From: the human T2T-CHM13v2.0 reference genome, Homo sapiens | Assembly (NCBI RefSeq): GCF_009914755.1 | Contig: NC_060947.1 | DNA: 64,000 bases | Strand: one strand, 5' to 3' | Part shown: positions 40,622-47,953 of the stretch, in pieces | Numbering within the stretch: position 1 is the stretch's first letter | Layout: every line of letters starts with the position of its first letter | Notes under the pieces: generated by a model | Database searches by the model: none | The model's input: only the letters and a program-made list of their open reading frames with translations | What the model was told of the DNA's origin: nothing | Program-made: the position numbers and the translations under genes

Positions 40622-41029
<408 letters not shown>

Positions 41030-41444
41030 TTATATACCACAGTCATAACTATGTTTTTTAAAACTATGTTTTTAAACTATGCTCTAAAAACCATGACTAC
41101 GCTTTTGGAAGAAACTGAGGGTGGAGGGGAGGAACAAAAAGCATGTAATGGCTGCAGCTCGGGTAGACACGTGGCTGGGCAGTGAGAAGAGGCGTGGTAA
41201 AGGAGGGGCTGGATGGCCGTGGGGAGGTGAGTGTTGCTCTTAGATGGAGCGGGCTGCTGGCCTGACCCAGGCTGGCAGGCGAGGTGATGGGGGCTGGGCA
41301 GGCTTCCCGACTCGGCTTCTACAGTATGTTCTGCCCTGTCCTCCAGCTGGCCGTTGGGGATCAGGGCATCTAGGCCAGAAGCCCACCCAGGGGCACCCTG
41401 TGTCTGATCCCTAAGGTGTCTTGTAGTCATTTCATGGACTCTGA

Positions 41445-41794
<350 letters not shown>

Positions 41795-41803
41795 GATCGG
41801 AAG

Positions 41804-42092
41804 CACTTTGACTCCCCGGAAGCACTTTGACTCCACGGAAGTACCTTTTTTTTTTTTTTTTTACATCCGGGAAGTTGCACAGCGCAAAATCAGACCATTT
41901 GGGACAGTCTTAGGAGTGCGTTCCGGGCTCGGACGCCATACCAGGCCACTTTGACTCCCCGGAAACACTTTGACTCCACGGAAGTACCTTTTTTTTTTTT
42001 TTTTTTTTACATCCGGGAAGTTGCACAGCGCAAAATCAGACCATTTGGGACAGTCTTAGGAGTACGTTCCGGGCTCGGACGCCATACCAGGC
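41804..42092. repeat. Near-perfect tandem duplication of a 143/146-bp unit
   Basis: Copies 41804-41946 and 41947-42092 differ by 2 substitutions and T-tract length (T17 vs T20). Confidence 0.95.
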
Positions 42093-42281
42093 CTGGATCC
42101 TTAGGACTTCTCCAGAGCACTTTGAAATAATTGTGGAAGGGCTTTGGCATCTCTAGAACACCGAGAACTGTGATAGACAGTTGAAAAAAGGAGGCGCCGG
42201 AGTGGCGTGAGGGCCCTCCAGCTCTGGGGCCCGTCGGCACGCAGAAAAGTACCACCGGAGCGGCACTTAGGTAGGATCCCC

Positions 42282-42365
42282 CAGCAAACACAGGTGCCCC
42301 GCAGAGCTCAGTAACGTGGTTTGCAGCAAACACAGGTGCCCCGCGGAGCTCAGTAACGTGGTTTG
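42282..42365. repeat. 42-bp tandem duplication
   Basis: CAGCAAACACAGGTGCCCCGC(A/G)GAGCTCAGTAACGTGGTTTG x2, one mismatch. Confidence 0.95.
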
Positions 42366-42600
42366 GAAGGGGAGAGAGGCCCCAAAGGCCTGAAAGGCCT
42401 AAAGGCTACTTTGTGGCCTGCACACCGTGTTTTTCTCAAGGTTCATCCTGCCACAGAAATTCTTTCTCCTCCTTCTCCTCCCATTCCTCAGCCACTGGCC
42501 TGATTAGGGCCGGCTCCAAAGACTGCCTCATTTGGAGCATTTGGAGTTCCTTTCGTCCTTGTGATCCCCAGTGCACTCTGCCAGCCCCGTTTTTAAAGAA

Positions 42601-44559
42601 ATGGCTTCTCTGGAGGAGGGTATCTACAGCCTTAAAATTAATTCCAAACGTAGCTCCTATAATTCCATGAACCCTCAATTTACAGCTGGAAGTGAGGGTC
42701 AAAATGAAACTGAGGAACCAAACAAGTTCCAGAGCAGGAAGGGTAGACCTCAAGATAGTGGCTCTTCATTGTCTCTGAGTGTTCTCCAGGAGATCCTGGG
42801 AGATGACATTCCAAAAGTAAAGGAAGAGGCTGTCATTAGTTCACAATCAGACCTAGGAGAGTGTCCCTACTGTGGAGAAAGACCAGCCAGGAATGCCACT
42901 ATCTTTGCTCCTCAAAAAGAGAAAGAGTCAGCCCCAGAAATGAGCAGCTCCTGTGACAAGAGGGTGACTGTTAATCCTCCTGAGAAATTCAGTGAGGGGC
43001 GACCTAAAACACAAAATACACTCATTTGTGAAAAATGCTCTCAGCCTTCAAATTTTCTGGATGACTATAACCCCCATGTAATAATCCAAAAGCGACTTAG
43101 CAACCAAAGTAGAGTCATTTGTGAAAAAAGCTCTCCACCTTTAAATGTTCCGGATAACTATAACTCCCATTCAGTAATTCAAAAGCACAAAGAAAAGATG
43201 GCAATTGAGCGCCCCTCTTCAGGGAGTGACTGGTCTGATGTAGGTGGAACCACAGTCATATTCTCTGAAGAGAAGCCATTCTCACTGTGTCTTCCTGTAG
43301 TGTCAGAGCCTCCATACTACGCCACTGACTACACCACTTTTCCACCTCATTATAGTCCTTGGCATGACTACACCAGCTCTTGGTTCAGCAGTACCAAGTC
43401 TTCTTGCTATCCCTCCTTGGGCAGCAGCAGTAACACATTGCAGGCTGGGAAGAGCAGCTGTAGCAGCAGCAGCAGAAGCAACAACAACATATTCCAGGGT
43501 GAGAGGAGCAGCCACCAGAGCTTCCTGAGTGATTATTCCACCAGTTTTCCAGTGAGCTCCGAAAACACATCCAGAGATCTGAAGATGACAGAGGAAGGCA
43601 GATCCAAGAATTCTTCCTTATTTTACTACTCCAGAAATGTGGAAGCAGAGGCGAAGGAGGAGAGAGTATATCAAGAGGAGACATTAGGACATCCTTATGG
43701 AGGACGTGCATCTAGCTTTCCGCCAAGGACCATCTGGCAGCCAGAGCAACCGGGTTTCATTGATACCCACTGTCATTTAGACTTGCTATATTCCAGGCTG
43801 CCTTTCAAAGGCACCTTTACCAAATTCAGAAAAATTTATAGCAACACCTTCCCCAAGGAGTTTCAGGGCTGCATTTCTTGCTTCTGCAATCCTCAAAACC
43901 TAAGTGATAACCTGTGGGAGGATCAGTTGAAAGATGATCTGGTTTGGGGGGTCTTTGGCTGTCGCCCTCATTTTGCCCATTATTATAACAACTATCAAGA
44001 AAGAAGTATTTTAAAAGCCTTACGACACCCCAAGGCTGTGGCATTCGGCGAAATGGGCTTGGATTACTCCAGTAAGTGCACCACGCATATCCCAGAGCAG
44101 CAGAAAGTATTTAAGAGACTGCTGCGGCTGGCCGTCTCTCTAAAGAAGCCCATGATGATCCACTGCCGAGAAGCCGATGAAGACCTACTGCACATCTTGA
44201 AAAATTACGTGCCCTCTGACCACAAGATACATCGCCATTGCTTCACTGGGAGTTACTCAGTCATCGAGCCCCTGTTGAACCACTTTCCCAACCTGTATGT
44301 GGGCTTCACGGCAATTCTGACTTACTCTTCTGCTGGGCAAGCCCGAGAAACTGTGAGAAAGATCCCGCTAGAGAGAATTATTGTAGAAACCGATGCTCCC
44401 TTCTTCCTCCCTCGCTGGGTTCCCAAAAGCTATTGCCAGTATGCCCACCCAGGCCTGGCCCTGCATACTGTGCGAGAGATTGCCAGAATCAAAGGTGTGT
44501 CGCTCTCCCACACCTTGACCGTCTTGCGGGAGAACACCCATCGCCTCTACCATCTTTAA
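42601..44559 (+). CDS. TATDN2P1: Intact 652-aa TATDN2-like protein: Ser-rich disordered N-terminus plus C-terminal TatD metallo-nuclease domain (~43753-44556)
   Basis: Single uninterrupted ORF from ATG 42601 (gaaATGG; in-frame TGA upstream at 42562) to TAA; TatD motifs [32 protein letters not shown] present. Confidence 0.85.
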
Positions 44560-44927
44560 ACAGAAAAGGCACAGTCAGGAGTCTTCCCAAGAAAGGAGAC
44601 CGGTAGCCTAACAAAACATACAGACTAGATTTGAACTCTGCGTATGTCCTGGGTCAAGGATGTGTTTGAAGAATTCGTTGGAACGGAGTAAACTAGGACA
44701 GGATATTTTCCTCAAAACCTTTTCGTAAGACTTCTGTTTCTGGCTGGTAGGGTGGGGTACAATGGGATGGCAGGAGGGTTAAGGTAAACTGCCCTTGATG
44801 TTATTAAGGTTTTTCTTCCCAGCAAAAATGCCTTAAGGTAGCCAGTAAAGAAGACAGCTTGATAGAATACAAAGAGTTTCCCAATCTAAATCCCTGTCCT
44901 CTGCAGCCTGCTTTTGATCGCTTGGTG

Positions 44928-44933
44928 AATAAA
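44928..44933 (+). terminator. Polyadenylation signal of the retrocopy
   Basis: AATAAA ~370 nt after the stop codon and 21 nt before a short A run. Confidence 0.6.
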
Positions 44934-45028
44934 GTCACCCTCCTACTTGTCTTTAAAAAAATGTAGAATTTTAAAAGTGAGGTAGGTGATTTGTGTATTA
45001 TATTTGTATATTATAGGAATTCTATTTA

Positions 45029-45510
<482 letters not shown>

Positions 45511-47953
45511 ATTTTTTAAATAAAAAATGTAAGTATACACTCAACAAGGTAAGCAAGATATACACACAATGAGTTTTCCTTTCAAAAAAAATTTTTCTAT
45601 CAAAAAAATTTTTTTTAATTTTAGATGAGAAAACTACTTTTCCAACCTGCTCCTCTCTCCCTGCATTTCTGTGTGGCAAATGCAAGTATTATACTCTGCA
45701 GTGTTTCTAACATGCAGGAGAGAACCTTGTTGCAATTCACCTTTATTTCTTTAGGAAGGGGAGTGAGCAATGTAGTTCTGAGTGTAGTATATCAAGAGTG
45801 GCCTAAATCAAAAAGCACAACCTTCATTTACTTATTCCATGAGTGAGGTAAAGAACAGTTCACTTACTCATGTTACTAGTAAAATCTTGCAATGCAAATG
45901 TGCAAAATTTGGGACACTTAGTAAATAGTTTGCTACTTAAGTGATAGATATTCCATTGAACCTCGAAGAATTATTATTTAGCATTTATTTTTCTGGCATT
46001 TGGTGTGTCTACTCTCCCATCCTGGAGGCATCAGAGAGCTGTGAAAGTAGCCAGTAATCTAGAAATTCAATTTACTCTTAGTGGTCCCTGGGCCATTAGT
46101 CCAGAGTCACAGAGCCTCTCAAGGCCCATTAACAGGCTCCCTGAACCTTGGCAGTCCTTTCAGGGCATGTCAACATTTCGCTTCACTTAAATTTTAGAAA
46201 GGCAGCTATTTCTACCTTTAAAGCTCAAAAGAAACAAACTGCCCACTTTGTCTTGGGAGACAGAGGGATTTGCTTTTTCAGTTGGTTTTTATTCATATCT
46301 AACTTCAAAATTCATACCTGCTTATTAAAAATTTTTGAGACAAGCAAAAAAATAAACGTGATTTTTTAAAAACCCAAACAAAATAAAAGCAACAGAAGGA
46401 AAAATGCACATGGTAAAATTGATTTTTTAAAAATCAATAGAAGAGTCAAATATTTACAAAATCTGGATATACAAAATTTGACTTAGGAAAATTGATTTTG
46501 GTAGAAATGTGATCATCAAAAAAAACTCAGATTGTCAAAAGCCATGATGGACAGCATTCATATAGACAAAAATTAATGAACCAAATGTTTCCAGTAAAAT
46601 TTATTGTAGAAAAAAAATCTATTGAAAATATTTCTTAATAGGAAAATATGGTAACAGTTTACCCGCATGGAAAAATTGTTCAAAGAATTAAAGTAGCTTG
46701 TAGTGGGGAAAAAAGTAAAAAGTAAAAATTAAAAAAAAAAACACACAAAGAGGGAGTAAAATAGCCCATAATGCTACCCACTTAGAGACAATCACTAACA
46801 TTTGGAGTAGCTCTTTGGCAGTTTTCTCTAATATTTCCATATATTGGCCAATTCCAGCATTGTACTTAAGTCAATTTTGCTAATTAATACTATTCACTTC
46901 ATAGTTAGCATAGCTATACATTTTACTTTCTCTGAGTTTATGATTTAAATACATTGTTTTCTGTATTTTTTGTTTAGGTTTAATTCTGTTTGTTTTAAAT
47001 ACTCAACTCAGACGGCATGTGCTTTTTCAAAACTATTGTTTACTGATACAAAAAATTGTGCTTTGAAATTTATTTTTCTTTTTGTTCTCTGATGTCTGTT
47101 TTATTGTGTATTTTTTAATGTCTTAAGCTAAATGCTTAGTTTATTTTTAATTTGGAGAGCAATAACAAAGCAGTCAATACTACAAATGTGTCTGTAATTA
47201 TAACTCTGCTGTATACATAGATTTAATTTGATAAAGTTTACACACTATAAAAATACAAACGTATTACAAAAATATGGAAATAGAGAGTAGCAGGAAAAAG
47301 TATATGGCATTTCTATTACCTAGAACCCCACTGTTGTTGATGTCTTTCCTTGACATAGTTGTGACCATATAGCCTGTTAAATTGCATATTCTTCTAAATA
47401 ATTCATATTTTTTTTCTATCCCTATCTTGGATTTGGGGCTCATTTTATGATTGTTATTCTTTTATCTTTCAATAAATACTCAAAATGTTTATGTTATGTT
47501 TTGAATTTTATTTATATTTCACGACCTATTATATATGTTTCTTTCTACTACTCACCACTAATCATTTTATTTCATGACCTCCCCATGGTTGAACTGTTTA
47601 ATTTGCTTTATCTCTTAATTGACTAGCAATTAAGCAACTTTTTCAGGAAAAGTATGTGGATAGCATATTAGTGATAAATTATATAACTGAGATCTTACTG
47701 CTGTTTTCACTAATGATAACACCTTGGCTGAGTTTAGATTTTCTGAGTCACATTTTCCCCTAAAAGTTATAGACATGGCTTCATTGTCTTCTGGCATTTA
47801 GTATTGCTGAGAATTCCAATGTCAACTTTGCCTTTGAGGGTTAAATTACTTTTTCTATCCTGATGCTTGGTAATTTCCTTGCTTTATCCTTGAAAATTTG
47901 TCAGGGTAGATCTAATTATTGATCTCTTTTTTATTTTCTCTGGTACAGAATAA

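What the first reader, a model, noticed from the sequence alone, without database searches (positions are those of the whole stretch)
42601..44559. Probable functional X-linked TatD-nuclease retrogene hidden as a 'pseudogene', nested antisense in EFHC2
Seen: an intronless, uninterrupted 652-codon ORF with a complete TatD TIM-barrel domain retaining all six canonical metal-site positions: His 43768 and His 43774 (DTHCH), Glu 44050 (GEMG), His 44161 (IHCR), His 44236 (HRHCF) and Asp 44392 (ETDAP). It has a strong Kozak ATG, a CpG/ETS promoter-like leader and AATAAA. Known: TatD proteins are metal-dependent nucleases, and TATDN2 has been described as an R-loop-resolving RNase. Against my recollection of TATDN2, the catalytic domain shows many, mostly conservative, substitutions (DLLYSRL vs DMLYSKL; PMMIH vs PLVIH) while the N-terminal half is far more diverged. 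A neutral copy this diverged should have picked up stops and frameshifts, as the L1PA in this window has. Inference: an old retrogene under purifying selection encoding a fourth TatD paralogue, plausibly germline-expressed and convergently overlapping a cilia/flagella gene. I vaguely recall proteogenomic hints for TATDN2P1 in testis but cannot verify this.
Basis: partly seen in the sequence, partly recalled or inferred. Interest (0 to 1): 0.9.

Follow-up and report, generated by a model that had tools for sequence, protein, structure and literature searches.

The report
Ancient X-linked TatD nuclease retrogene
The human "pseudogene" TATDN2P1 looks like a real, roughly 100-million-year-old X-linked copy of the TATDN2 nuclease gene that is still kept open and is made as protein in testis, although that protein evidence was already published in 2018.

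Summary
Window 42601-44559 (+) is an uninterrupted 652-codon ORF. It carries a full-length TatD_DNase domain (Pfam E 3e-59, profile 1-253/253) with every metal or catalytic residue intact.

It is a processed copy of the multi-exon TATDN2 gene on chr3. In a marsupial-rooted tree it falls in one clade of 32 open-frame proteins from Euarchontoglires and Laurasiatheria (support 99), beside the eutherian parental genes. The copy therefore arose before the boreoeutherian split.

A chr13 DNA duplicate of this locus, about 9% diverged, serves as a neutral control. It has 7 stops and 3 frameshifts; the X copy has none. It evolves at omega about 1. The X lineage shows about 0.56 overall, about 0.3 in the TatD domain and about 1.2 in the N-terminal half.

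Constraint is moderate. The TatD domain changes about 6 times faster than the parent's, and catarrhines replaced a near-invariant active-site His with Arg (R455).

Translation and testis specificity are already in print: Zhu et al. 2018, two unique peptides. The age, the clade and the selection pattern appeared in none of my searches.

The parts
41489..42093 (+). Unique upstream region rich in GGAA/ETS-like words. It includes a 146-bp x2 tandem repeat at 41804-42093. An antisense Alu at 41505-41794 splits it, flanked by a 16-bp target-site duplication (41489-41504 and 41795-41810). Candidate recruited promoter; this is inferred.
   Evidence: Sequence read. TRF found period 146, 2.0 copies, 96% matches. 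CGGAAG clustering. The only other copy in the genome is the partial chr13 duplicate. No expression data.
42235..42600 (+). 5' leader made of decayed parental exon-1 coding sequence (parental residues about 5-126), now holding stops. It contains a 42-bp x2 tandem duplication at 42282-42365.
   Evidence: tblastn of the elephant parental N-terminus gave one HSP over window 42235-42699 (35% identity, E 6.7e-12, stops inside). The macaque HSPs cover 42380-42541 and 42547-42699. TRF result.
42601..44559 (+). Intact 652-codon ORF of TATDN2P1, stop codon included.
42601..43758 (+). N-terminal half, residues 1-386. Fast-evolving, omega about 1. It starts at the parental internal Met (after macaque residue 126). 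It lacks one residue of the parental KRKR/KRRR basic motif, near human residue 44.
   Evidence: NG86 omega 0.96 against chr13. X lineage 5 synonymous / 23 non-synonymous. Identity to dog orthologue 0.36, against 0.79 for the parental pair. Indel.
43022..43186 (+). Anthropoid-specific internal tandem duplication of about 31 residues (ICEK...IQK repeat).
   Evidence: Internal blastn self-hit through chr13. In the alignment it is present in human, chr13, Saguinus and Plecturocebus, and absent in non-primates and parents.
43759..44556 (+). TatD TIM-barrel nuclease domain, residues 387-652, class II (HxH).
   Evidence: Pfam PF01026 E 3.2e-59, profile 1-253/253. PDB sequence matches. Invariant H390, H392, E484, H521, H546, E596, D598.
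43963..43965 (+). Codon R455. Arg stands where 21 of 25 retro-clade rows and 23 of 23 parental rows have His. The position aligns to E. coli TatD H62 and, by index arithmetic, to TATDN1 H77, the phosphate-contacting His.
   Evidence: Role of H77 taken from passages of Dorival & Eichman 2023.
44170..44202 (+). Published testis peptide [11 protein letters not shown], residues 524-534.
   Evidence: Zhu et al. 2018, supplementary file 4. The peptide is present in the ORF. It differs from the parent (EADEDLLEIMK) and from chr13.
44377..44415 (+). Published testis peptide [13 protein letters not shown], residues 593-605. It spans catalytic E596 and D598.
   Evidence: The ORF is. chr13 reads IIVETNAPFFLPH; the macaque and elephant parental orthologues have ...APYFLPR.
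44560..44960 (+). 3' UTR homologous to the parental 3' UTR, with AATAAA at 44928-44933 and an A7 remnant at 44954-44960.
   Evidence: blastn to chr3 over 44595-44952 at 72% identity. Sequence.
42039..47259 (+). Segment copied as DNA to chr13 (C13:22451456 onward, 89-93% identity). It includes non-retro flank and an Alu, and runs off the fetched chr13 locus. Used here as the neutral control.

Best explanation
TATDN2P1 is a protein-coding retrogene, not a dead pseudogene.

Origin. A spliced TATDN2 mRNA was reverse-transcribed into an intron of EFHC2 on the X chromosome. This happened on the eutherian stem, or at the latest before Boreoeutheria split. The copy lost the parental start and first 126 residues, which decayed into a 5' leader, and it now starts at an internal Met.

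Maintenance. It has been kept open in primates, colugo, rodents, carnivores, bats, moles, a rhinoceros, and artiodactyls and whales.

Function, inferred. The product is a class II (HxH) two-metal TatD nuclease. Its catalytic core is under purifying selection. Its disordered N-terminal half, which in the parent gives R-loop binding, evolves almost freely. In man it is made in testis, as published. The likely role is a germ-cell-specific 3'-5' exo/endonuclease on RNA or DNA ends or R-loops, with altered targeting.

What is shown and what is inferred. Shown here: anatomy, ancestry, age, ORF maintenance and domain-specific constraint. Taken from print: translation and testis specificity. Inferred: enzyme activity, substrate, cell type and promoter.
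For: Anatomy. The catalytic residues equivalent to TATDN2 E593, E705 and D707 (= E484, E596, D598) are present together with the HxH pair and two further His. All are invariant in 37 of 37 aligned sequences: 23 retro-clade, 7 eutherian parents and 7 others.

Processed origin. The parental exons on chr3 lie at 10253428-10253964, 10263425-10264315, 10269660-10269788, 10271570-10271764 and 10272181-10272321. In the window they are contiguous, and exon-1 homology runs upstream of the ATG.

Age and single origin.
- dS against the parent is 0.50.
- In the full-length IQ-TREE trees, 25 retro rows form one clade at 98 (54 rows).
- With marsupial rooting, 32 rows form one clade at 99. It splits into Euarchontoglires (15 rows, 98) and Laurasiatheria (17 rows, 98) (51 rows).
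- Two indels separate all retro rows from all parental rows.

Selection, with the chr13 duplicate as neutral control.
- chr13 has 7 in-frame stops and 3 frameshifting indels; X has 0. If each change were equally likely on either lineage, p = 0.001.
- Polarised substitutions: X 18 synonymous / 38 non-synonymous; chr13 17 / 67, which equals the neutral site ratio of 3.75.
- In the TatD domain: X 13 / 15 against chr13 7 / 28. Binomial against neutral p = 0.003; Fisher p = 0.032.
- At 113 positions invariant in 43 non-anthropoid rows, chr13 differs at 14 and X at 7, of which 5 positions are also changed in chr13.
- X versus parent omega is 0.41 overall and 0.23 in the TatD domain.
- Simulated chance of no stop after 56-84 neutral substitutions is 0.12-0.05, before counting indels.

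Expression (print). Two peptides unique to this ORF, 3 PSMs, TMT signal specific to testis. RNA reads for the row seen were 19, 10 and 1 in testis and 0 in kidney, liver and tonsil, with a PhyloCSF flag of 1. Two later papers from overlapping data report testis detection again.
Against: Constraint is only moderate.
- Whole-ORF X versus chr13 Fisher test gives p = 0.12.
- ORF nucleotide divergence to chr13 (8.6-9.1%) is no lower than in the flanks (9.2% and 9.5%; 6.8-7.9% further out).
- The N-terminal half has omega about 1.
- TatD identity between human and dog orthologues is 0.73, against 0.96 for the parental pair.
- Human versus gibbon TatD identity is 0.95 (12 of 266 differ). From my recollection of neutral divergence, that is close to the neutral expectation.

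Active-site changes. Human X differs at 7 of 113 otherwise invariant positions. One is H455R at a residue that contacts the substrate phosphate in TATDN1.

Limits of the protein evidence. It rests on 2 peptides and 3 PSMs. For the one peptide row I saw in full, PEP was 0.051 and the Ribo-seq count was 0.

Untested points.
- The polarisation dropped 32 ambiguous sites and uses parsimony with a distant outgroup.
- The 'orthologues' are gene models, and 12 of 25 carry odd or partial N-termini.
- Neither their X linkage nor EFHC2 synteny could be checked.
- No structure model could be made.
Confidence: 0.8

Rival explanations
1. A gene on its way out. The retrogene was functional through most of eutherian history, but constraint relaxed in anthropoid or catarrhine primates. 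The human ORF is still open and leaky-translated in testis, yet no longer needed.
For: Five changes at otherwise invariant positions are shared by chr13 and so predate the X/chr13 split (S401P, T433N, H455 replaced, E505K, W579 replaced), and the human line adds A451V and Q507L. Catarrhine H455R and Plecturocebus H455Q affect an active-site His. Human versus gibbon, Nasalis and New World monkey TatD identities are 0.95, 0.92 and 0.79-0.82, near what I recall as neutral expectation. N-terminal omega is about 1. Whole-ORF Fisher p = 0.12.
Against: There are 0 disabling changes on X against 10 on chr13 since the split. The TatD domain shows 13 synonymous / 15 non-synonymous changes on the X lineage, against 7 / 28 on chr13. 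All metal ligands are kept in all 5 anthropoid sequences. The frame is open in human, gibbon, colobine and two New World monkeys. The protein has been detected.
Confidence: 0.15
2. A neutral processed pseudogene whose long ORF survived by chance. On this view the published peptides are false positives.
For: RefSeq calls it a pseudogene (hub annotation). Only 2 peptides and 3 PSMs support translation; the Ribo-seq count is 0 in the one peptide row I saw in full. ORF and flank divergence to chr13 are alike.
Against: With dS of 0.50 to the parent, several hundred neutral substitutions are expected. Simulation gives only 0.12 survival for just 56. The chr13 and chr6 copies are riddled with stops. 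A clade of 32 open-frame models tracks the species tree. Catalytic residues are invariant.
Confidence: 0.03
3. The locus acts mainly as an RNA, either as an antisense regulator of its host EFHC2 or as a decoy for TATDN2-targeting microRNAs. On this view the ORF is incidental.
For: It is nested antisense in an EFHC2 intron (hub annotation). Its 3' UTR keeps 72% identity to the parental 3' UTR and is the least diverged part against chr13, at 4.9%. TATDN2 is microRNA-regulated (abstract).
Against: An RNA role does not explain an open 652-codon frame kept for about 100 My, an excess of synonymous changes in the TatD domain, or invariant catalytic residues. No Rfam family matches in 41000-46000.
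Confidence: 0.03

Closest known systems
Human TATDN2 (chr3; 3'-5' RNA exo/endonuclease that resolves R-loops, Jaiswal et al. 2023)
   Same: It is the direct parent. The domain order is the same: a long N-terminal region followed by a class II TatD barrel. E593, E705 and D707 correspond to E484, E596 and D598. Of the two catalytic-site cysteines that paper names, by the 109-residue offset C656 corresponds to C547, which is invariant; the partner of C538 (position 429) is Cys in human and nearly invariant. Macaque-parent TatD identity is 0.76.
   Different: It is intronless and X-linked. It lacks the parental first 126 residues and one residue of the KRKR basic motif. It has an anthropoid-specific 31-residue duplication and a Ser/Asn-rich insert. 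N-terminal identity is only 0.50. Its TatD domain evolves about 6 times faster. R455 replaces His. Expression is testis-specific rather than broad.
Class II TatD nucleases with solved structures (E. coli YcfH 1YIX, human TATDN3 2Y1H)
   Same: The HxH motif and the Glu/His/His/Asp metal ligands are shared. YcfH matches over the full length, residues 387-652, E 1e-24.
   Different: Those proteins are single-domain and have no long N-terminal extension. The strand-3 His is replaced by Arg in the human X protein.
Testis-expressed processed 'pseudogenes' shown to be translated, such as UBE2L5P in the same study
   Same: Each is a retrocopy of a broadly expressed parent, with peptides and RNA restricted to testis.
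   Different: Here the copy went from an autosome to the X, and dates to before the boreoeutherian split with a traceable orthologue clade. I did not examine the other cases.
The other human TATDN2 copies (chr13 and chr6)
   Same: Same family. chr13 is a DNA duplicate of this very locus, and chr6 is a separate retrocopy of the parent.
   Different: Both are broken. chr13 has 7 stops and 3 frameshifts, plus D598N and H544Y. chr6 has at least 3 stops in the X frame and is closer to the parent (dS 0.26).

Membership tests
TatD nuclease family (Pfam PF01026), class II | Full-length TatD_DNase TIM-barrel domain above the curated cut-off | tested here: met
   200.8 bits against a cut-off of 27, profile 1-253/253.
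TatD nuclease family (Pfam PF01026), class II | N-terminal HxH motif that defines class II (Dorival & Eichman 2023) | tested here: met
   D388-T-H390-C-H392. H390 and H392 are invariant in 37/37. Class definition.
TatD nuclease family (Pfam PF01026), class II | Metal-binding or catalytic Glu, His, His, Glu and Asp (E. coli TatD E91, H127, H152, E201, D203; TATDN2 E593, E705, D707) | tested here: met
   E484, H521, H546, E596 and D598 are aligned and invariant. Mutational data from passages.
TatD nuclease family (Pfam PF01026), class II | Conserved strand-3 His of the G-x-H-P motif (E. coli TatD H62; TATDN1 H77, which contacts the phosphate) | tested here: not met
   Human has R455 (GCRPH). His is found in 21/25 retro rows and 23/23 parents. 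The equivalence to TATDN1 H77 rests on index arithmetic and is not a printed alignment.
TatD nuclease family (Pfam PF01026), class II | Divalent-metal-dependent nuclease activity | not testable with these tools
   Needs recombinant protein.
Functional retrogene (processed copy under selection) | Intronless copy of a multi-exon parent, with parental UTR homology and a poly(A) signal | tested here: met
   Five exon junctions are contiguous. There is 3' UTR homology, AATAAA and an A7 run. Target-site duplications were not sought, because the insertion is too old.
Functional retrogene (processed copy under selection) | Open frame kept in orthologues of several lineages | tested here: met
   A 32-row clade whose branching mirrors the species tree. 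These are gene models, and synteny was not testable.
Functional retrogene (processed copy under selection) | dN/dS below 1 on the copy's own lineage | tested here: met
   TatD domain 13 synonymous / 15 non-synonymous against neutral expectation, p = 0.003. Whole ORF p = 0.035 one-sided. N-terminal half not below 1.
Functional retrogene (processed copy under selection) | Transcription and translation | not testable with these tools
   From print only: Zhu et al. 2018, passages and supplementary file 4.

The most novel reading that the evidence does not exclude
Eutherian mammals carry a fourth, unrecognised TatD nuclease. It is an X-linked retrogene from the eutherian stem that became specialised for male germ cells. 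It kept the two-metal catalytic core and freed its targeting region: the parental N-terminus and basic motif were lost, and the region evolves at omega about 1. In catarrhines the phosphate-contacting His became Arg, which may have shifted substrate choice, for instance away from AP-site incision and toward exonuclease or R-loop RNA cleavage. On this reading it would act in germline genome stability in parallel with TATDN2, which was recently shown to be needed in primordial germ cells.
Probability: 0.3. Interest if true: 0.65.

Novelty: new member of a known kind. Interest (0 to 1): 0.45.

Why it matters
Two recent TatD papers state that humans have three TatD paralogues (passages), and RefSeq still labels this locus a pseudogene. 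A fourth, testis-specific enzyme would matter in three ways.

- It would add a player to germline R-loop and DNA-end processing. This comes just as TATDN2 has been tied to BRCA1-deficient cell survival and to primordial germ cell genome stability (abstracts).
- It would be a candidate X-linked male-fertility gene.
- It shares peptides and sequence with TATDN2, so it can confound antibody, siRNA or read-mapping work on the parent in testis.

The chr13 duplicate also gives a neat built-in neutral control for studying selection on a retrogene. The novelty is limited, because translation and testis specificity were published in 2018.

Tried and rejected
- Chr6 copy as an older relative. I first took it for one because its protein identity to X is low. 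Its dS to the parent is 0.26, against 0.47 to X, so it is a separate and younger retrocopy of the parent. It served only as a second outgroup.
- TatD-domain-only tree. The tree of 82 rows left the retro rows in a polytomy with the parents and did not show them as one clade. Only the full-length trees did.
- Search for the parental 5' end. A sensitive blastn of the leader (41790-42640) against the fetched chr3 loci gave only poly-T noise. The parental first coding exon (residues 1-137) lies outside what I fetched, so the retrocopy's true 5' end is not fixed.
- Dispersed-repeat origin of the upstream region. Rejected: only X and the chr13 duplicate match.
- Bacterial-type promoter and terminator scan. 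It has no bearing on a human locus.
- Rfam scan of 41000-46000. No family matched.
- Structure prediction. I therefore make no claim on N-terminal disorder or on the geometry around R455.
- Literature beyond proteogenomics. 'TATDN2P1' gave 4 papers, 'TATDN2 + retrogene' 3 papers, and 'TATDN2 + pseudogene + testis' 7 papers. None treats the evolution or enzymology of this locus. One uses a short stretch of it as a DNAzyme oligonucleotide.
- bioRxiv supplements and most of the supplements of the two later proteogenomics papers were not seen.
Full report
**Observation**

Window 42601-44559 (+) is one open frame of 652 codons starting at ATG. It has G at -3 and G at +4. AATAAA lies at 44928-44933, followed by a short A run.

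Residues 387-651 match the whole Pfam TatD_DNase profile (1-253 of 253, E 3.2e-59). Sixteen solved TatD-family sequences also match, led by E. coli TatD and YcfH.

They encode H390, H392, E484, H521, H546 and D598. The printed alignment to E. coli TatD puts E484, H521, H546 and D598 on E91, H127, H152 and D203. Passages of Jaiswal et al. 2023 equate these with TATDN2 E593, E705 and D707. They report that E593A and E705A abolish R-loop RNase activity. The X protein keeps the E705 equivalent, E596.

**What it is**

A six-frame search of the window's own genome found four loci:
- the window itself;
- the multi-exon parent TATDN2 on chr3;
- a stop-ridden copy on chr13;
- another stop-ridden copy on chr6.

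Parental residues 138-761 lie in five exons spread over 19 kb of chr3. The same sequence is contiguous in the window. Homology to parental residues about 5-126 continues upstream of the ATG but holds stops.

The locus is therefore a processed copy. Its original start and first 126 residues have decayed into a 5' leader, and translation begins at an internal parental Met. The RefSeq span starts at 42379. Recognisable parental sequence reaches about 42235 in a single weak HSP.

**Age and orthologues**

A protein search found close relatives with open frames in four primates:
- siamang, 90% identity;
- proboscis monkey, 79%;
- tamarin, 77%;
- titi, 75%.

It also found many proteins of about 580-720 residues, all named 'putative deoxyribonuclease TATDN2', in species that also carry the normal protein of about 745 residues.

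In a full-length maximum-likelihood tree of 54 rows, the 25 short-type rows form one clade (support 98), beside 23 parental rows (support 80).

I then added rows from a second search and rooted on two named marsupial proteins. The clade grew to 32 rows (support 99). It splits into two groups:
- Euarchontoglires, 15 rows: colugo, five anthropoids including human, squirrel, two mole-rats, jerboa, rat, three cricetids and one unnamed.
- Laurasiatheria, 17 rows: two moles, three carnivores, a rhinoceros, three bats, six artiodactyls or whales and two unnamed.

The clade sits inside the eutherian clade (99) in a polytomy with the parental genes.

Two single-residue indels separate every retro row from every parental row. 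One removes a residue of the parental KRKR/KRRR basic motif. Thirteen of 25 models start at the same MAS... Met. The other 12 carry predicted upstream exons or are partial.

dS between the X copy and the human parent is 0.50.

I conclude a single retroposition after the marsupial split and before Boreoeutheria diverged. No afrotherian or xenarthran member was seen among the rows listed, so loss there, or origin just after their split, remains open. X linkage and EFHC2 synteny in other species could not be tested with these tools.

A tree of the TatD domain alone did not resolve the clade.

**A built-in neutral control**

The chr13 copy is not a separate retrocopy. It aligns to the window from 42039 to at least 47259 at 89-93% identity. 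That span includes upstream non-parental sequence, an Alu and downstream EFHC2-intron sequence. So it is a DNA duplicate of the X locus.

It shares the derived G in codon 455 with catarrhines. It therefore postdates the New World monkey split (inference).

Since the duplication, chr13 has gained 7 in-frame stops and 3 frameshifting indels of 2, 4 and 1 nt. The X copy has gained none. Three further in-frame indels were not assigned to a lineage.

Nei-Gojobori omega between the two copies, using 643 of 652 codons:

| Region | omega |
|---|---|
| Whole ORF | 0.77 |
| N-terminal half | 0.96 |
| TatD domain | 0.60 |

I polarised the differences with the parent and the chr6 copy. This dropped 32 ambiguous sites.

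| Lineage and region | Synonymous | Non-synonymous |
|---|---|---|
| X, whole ORF | 18 | 38 |
| chr13, whole ORF | 17 | 67 |
| X, TatD domain | 13 | 15 |
| chr13, TatD domain | 7 | 28 |
| X, N-terminal half | 5 | 23 |
| chr13, N-terminal half | 10 | 39 |

The neutral non-synonymous to synonymous site ratio is 3.75. On that basis chr13 behaves neutrally (omega about 1.05). The X lineage has omega of about 0.56 overall, about 0.3 in the TatD domain and about 1.2 in the N-terminal half.

Tests:
- TatD on X against neutral: p = 0.003.
- TatD, X against chr13: Fisher p = 0.032.
- Whole ORF against neutral: p = 0.035, one-sided.
- Whole ORF, X against chr13: p = 0.12.
- All 10 disabling changes on one lineage: p = 0.001.

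Random substitution of the inferred earlier ORF leaves it stop-free in 12%, 8% and 5% of trials at 56, 70 and 84 changes. That is before counting indels.

At 113 positions invariant in 43 non-anthropoid rows, chr13 differs at 14, including D598N and H544Y. Human X differs at 7.

**Evidence that constraint is only moderate**

- Nucleotide divergence to chr13 is no lower in the ORF (8.6-9.1%) than in the flanks (9.2%, 9.5%, and 6.8-7.9% further out). Only the 3' UTR is lower, at 4.9%.
- TatD-domain identity is 0.73 for human versus dog orthologues, against 0.96 for macaque versus fox parental proteins. The N-terminal halves give 0.36 against 0.79.
- Within primates, TatD identity to human is 0.95 (gibbon), 0.92 (Nasalis) and 0.82 and 0.79 (New World monkeys). 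From my recollection of neutral divergences, which no call supports, these values are not far below neutral.
- Of the seven human departures from otherwise invariant residues, five positions are also changed in chr13 and so predate the split. Two of the seven (A451V and Q507L) are changed in none of the other four anthropoid sequences.
- The most notable change is H455R in the G-C-H-P motif. His is present in 21 of 25 retro rows and 23 of 23 parents. Arg is found in human, siamang and Nasalis, and Gln in the titi.
- This position aligns to E. coli TatD H62. By index arithmetic on the table it also aligns to TATDN1 H77. Dorival and Eichman report that H77 hydrogen-bonds the substrate phosphate rather than a metal. 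They found that H77A lowers AP-endonuclease activity ten-fold without affecting exonuclease activity (passages).

**What is already in print**

Zhu et al. 2018 (Nat Commun 9:903; passages and supplementary file 4 seen) show TATDN2P1 as their Fig. 5a example of a translated pseudogene. They report two peptides and three PSMs. TMT quantification is specific to testis while TATDN2 is broad, and RNA-seq is testis-specific. They suggest an independent function in testis.

The peptides are [11 protein letters not shown] and [13 protein letters not shown]. Both lie in the TatD domain of this ORF. For the first, the supplement lists the nearest human TATDN2 match as EADEDLLEIMK. For the second, the macaque and elephant parental orthologues read ...APYFLPR. 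Both also differ from the chr13 copy.

The row I could read in full gives q = 0, PEP 0.051 and 2 PSMs. Its Ribo-seq count is 0 and its PhyloCSF flag is 1. RNA read counts are 19, 10 and 1 in three testis samples, and 0 in four kidney, four liver and three tonsil samples.

Two later papers from an overlapping group report testis detection with two unique peptides in a 31-tissue data set.

No paper found by 'TATDN2P1' (4 papers), 'TATDN2 + retrogene' (3) or 'TATDN2 + pseudogene + testis' (7) treats its age, orthologues, selection or enzymology. Passages of two TatD papers state that humans have three paralogues. A 2025 paper on Tatdn2 in primordial germ cells does not contain the words pseudogene, paralog or retro.

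**How it most likely works**

Shown here:
- a complete class II TatD barrel with all metal ligands, under purifying selection;
- an N-terminal half that evolves freely and has lost the parental N-terminus and part of a basic motif.

From print:
- The parent is a Mg-dependent 3' RNA exo/endonuclease on R-loops, and its N-terminal region is required for R-loop binding.
- The parent is high in spermatogonia and early spermatocytes and low later.
- The X protein is testis-specific.

Inferred: the X protein is a metal-dependent nuclease of male germ cells. Its catalytic chemistry is conserved, but its targeting differs from the parent's. In catarrhines its handling of the scissile phosphate may differ too. 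The GGAA-rich unique repeat at 41489-42093 is a candidate recruited promoter, but I had no expression data to test it.

**Verdict**

The locus is best filed as a new, unannotated member of the TatD family and of the class of old testis-expressed retrogenes.

Its coding potential and tissue specificity were already published.
- its origin before the boreoeutherian split and its orthologue clade;
- the chr13 neutral control;
- the domain-specific selection pattern;
- the R455 change.

Interest is moderate.

Noticed in passing
window 42039-47259 and G000:C13:22451456 onward (L016): A segmental duplication from the X-linked EFHC2 intron to chr13, at 89-93% identity. It carries the whole retrogene, an Alu and intron flank. 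Its 5' edge falls inside the second copy of the 146-bp repeat. The 3' edge runs off the fetched locus, so its full extent is unknown.
   Followed up: partly
G000:C6:159853497-159856878 (L017, minus strand): The chr6 TATDN2 copy is an independent retrocopy that is closer to the parent (dS 0.26) than to the X gene (dS 0.47). It has stops. A review places hsa-miR-7161 in a retrocopy called TATDN2P2. I did not check whether that is this locus.
   Followed up: partly
window 41505-41794: An antisense Alu inserted into the GGAA-rich upstream region, with a clean 16-bp target-site duplication at 41489-41504 and 41795-41810. It lies upstream of the 5' edge (42039) of the segment copied to chr13.
   Followed up: no
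window 42282-42365: A 42-bp x2 tandem duplication in the 5' leader. chr13 has only one copy (a 43-bp gap at 42302). So this is either a gain on the X lineage after the split or a loss on chr13.
   Followed up: no
window 43400-43520 (residues about 268-306): An anthropoid-only Ser/Asn-rich insert ([21 protein letters not shown]) in the N-terminal half. It is absent from non-primate orthologues and from parents, and varies in length among primates.
   Followed up: no
window 44560-44952: The 3' UTR is the least diverged part between X and chr13: 4.9%, against 8.6-9.5% elsewhere. I have no explanation. Chance with 389 sites, a constraint on the UTR, and local gene conversion are all possible.
   Followed up: no
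G000:C10:64080566-64080943: A weak TatD-like match (29% identity to residues 473-602, one TGA inside) on another chromosome. Probably a fragment of a different TatD paralogue.
   Followed up: no
P0271 (Rattus, 413 aa), P0277 (Peromyscus, 1084 aa), P0270 (Scotinomys, 1031 aa), P0282 (Lemmus, 517 aa), P0130 (Jaculus, 657 aa): Myomorph rodents have divergent members of the retrogene clade, with very different model lengths. No mouse member appeared among the rows listed.
   Followed up: partly
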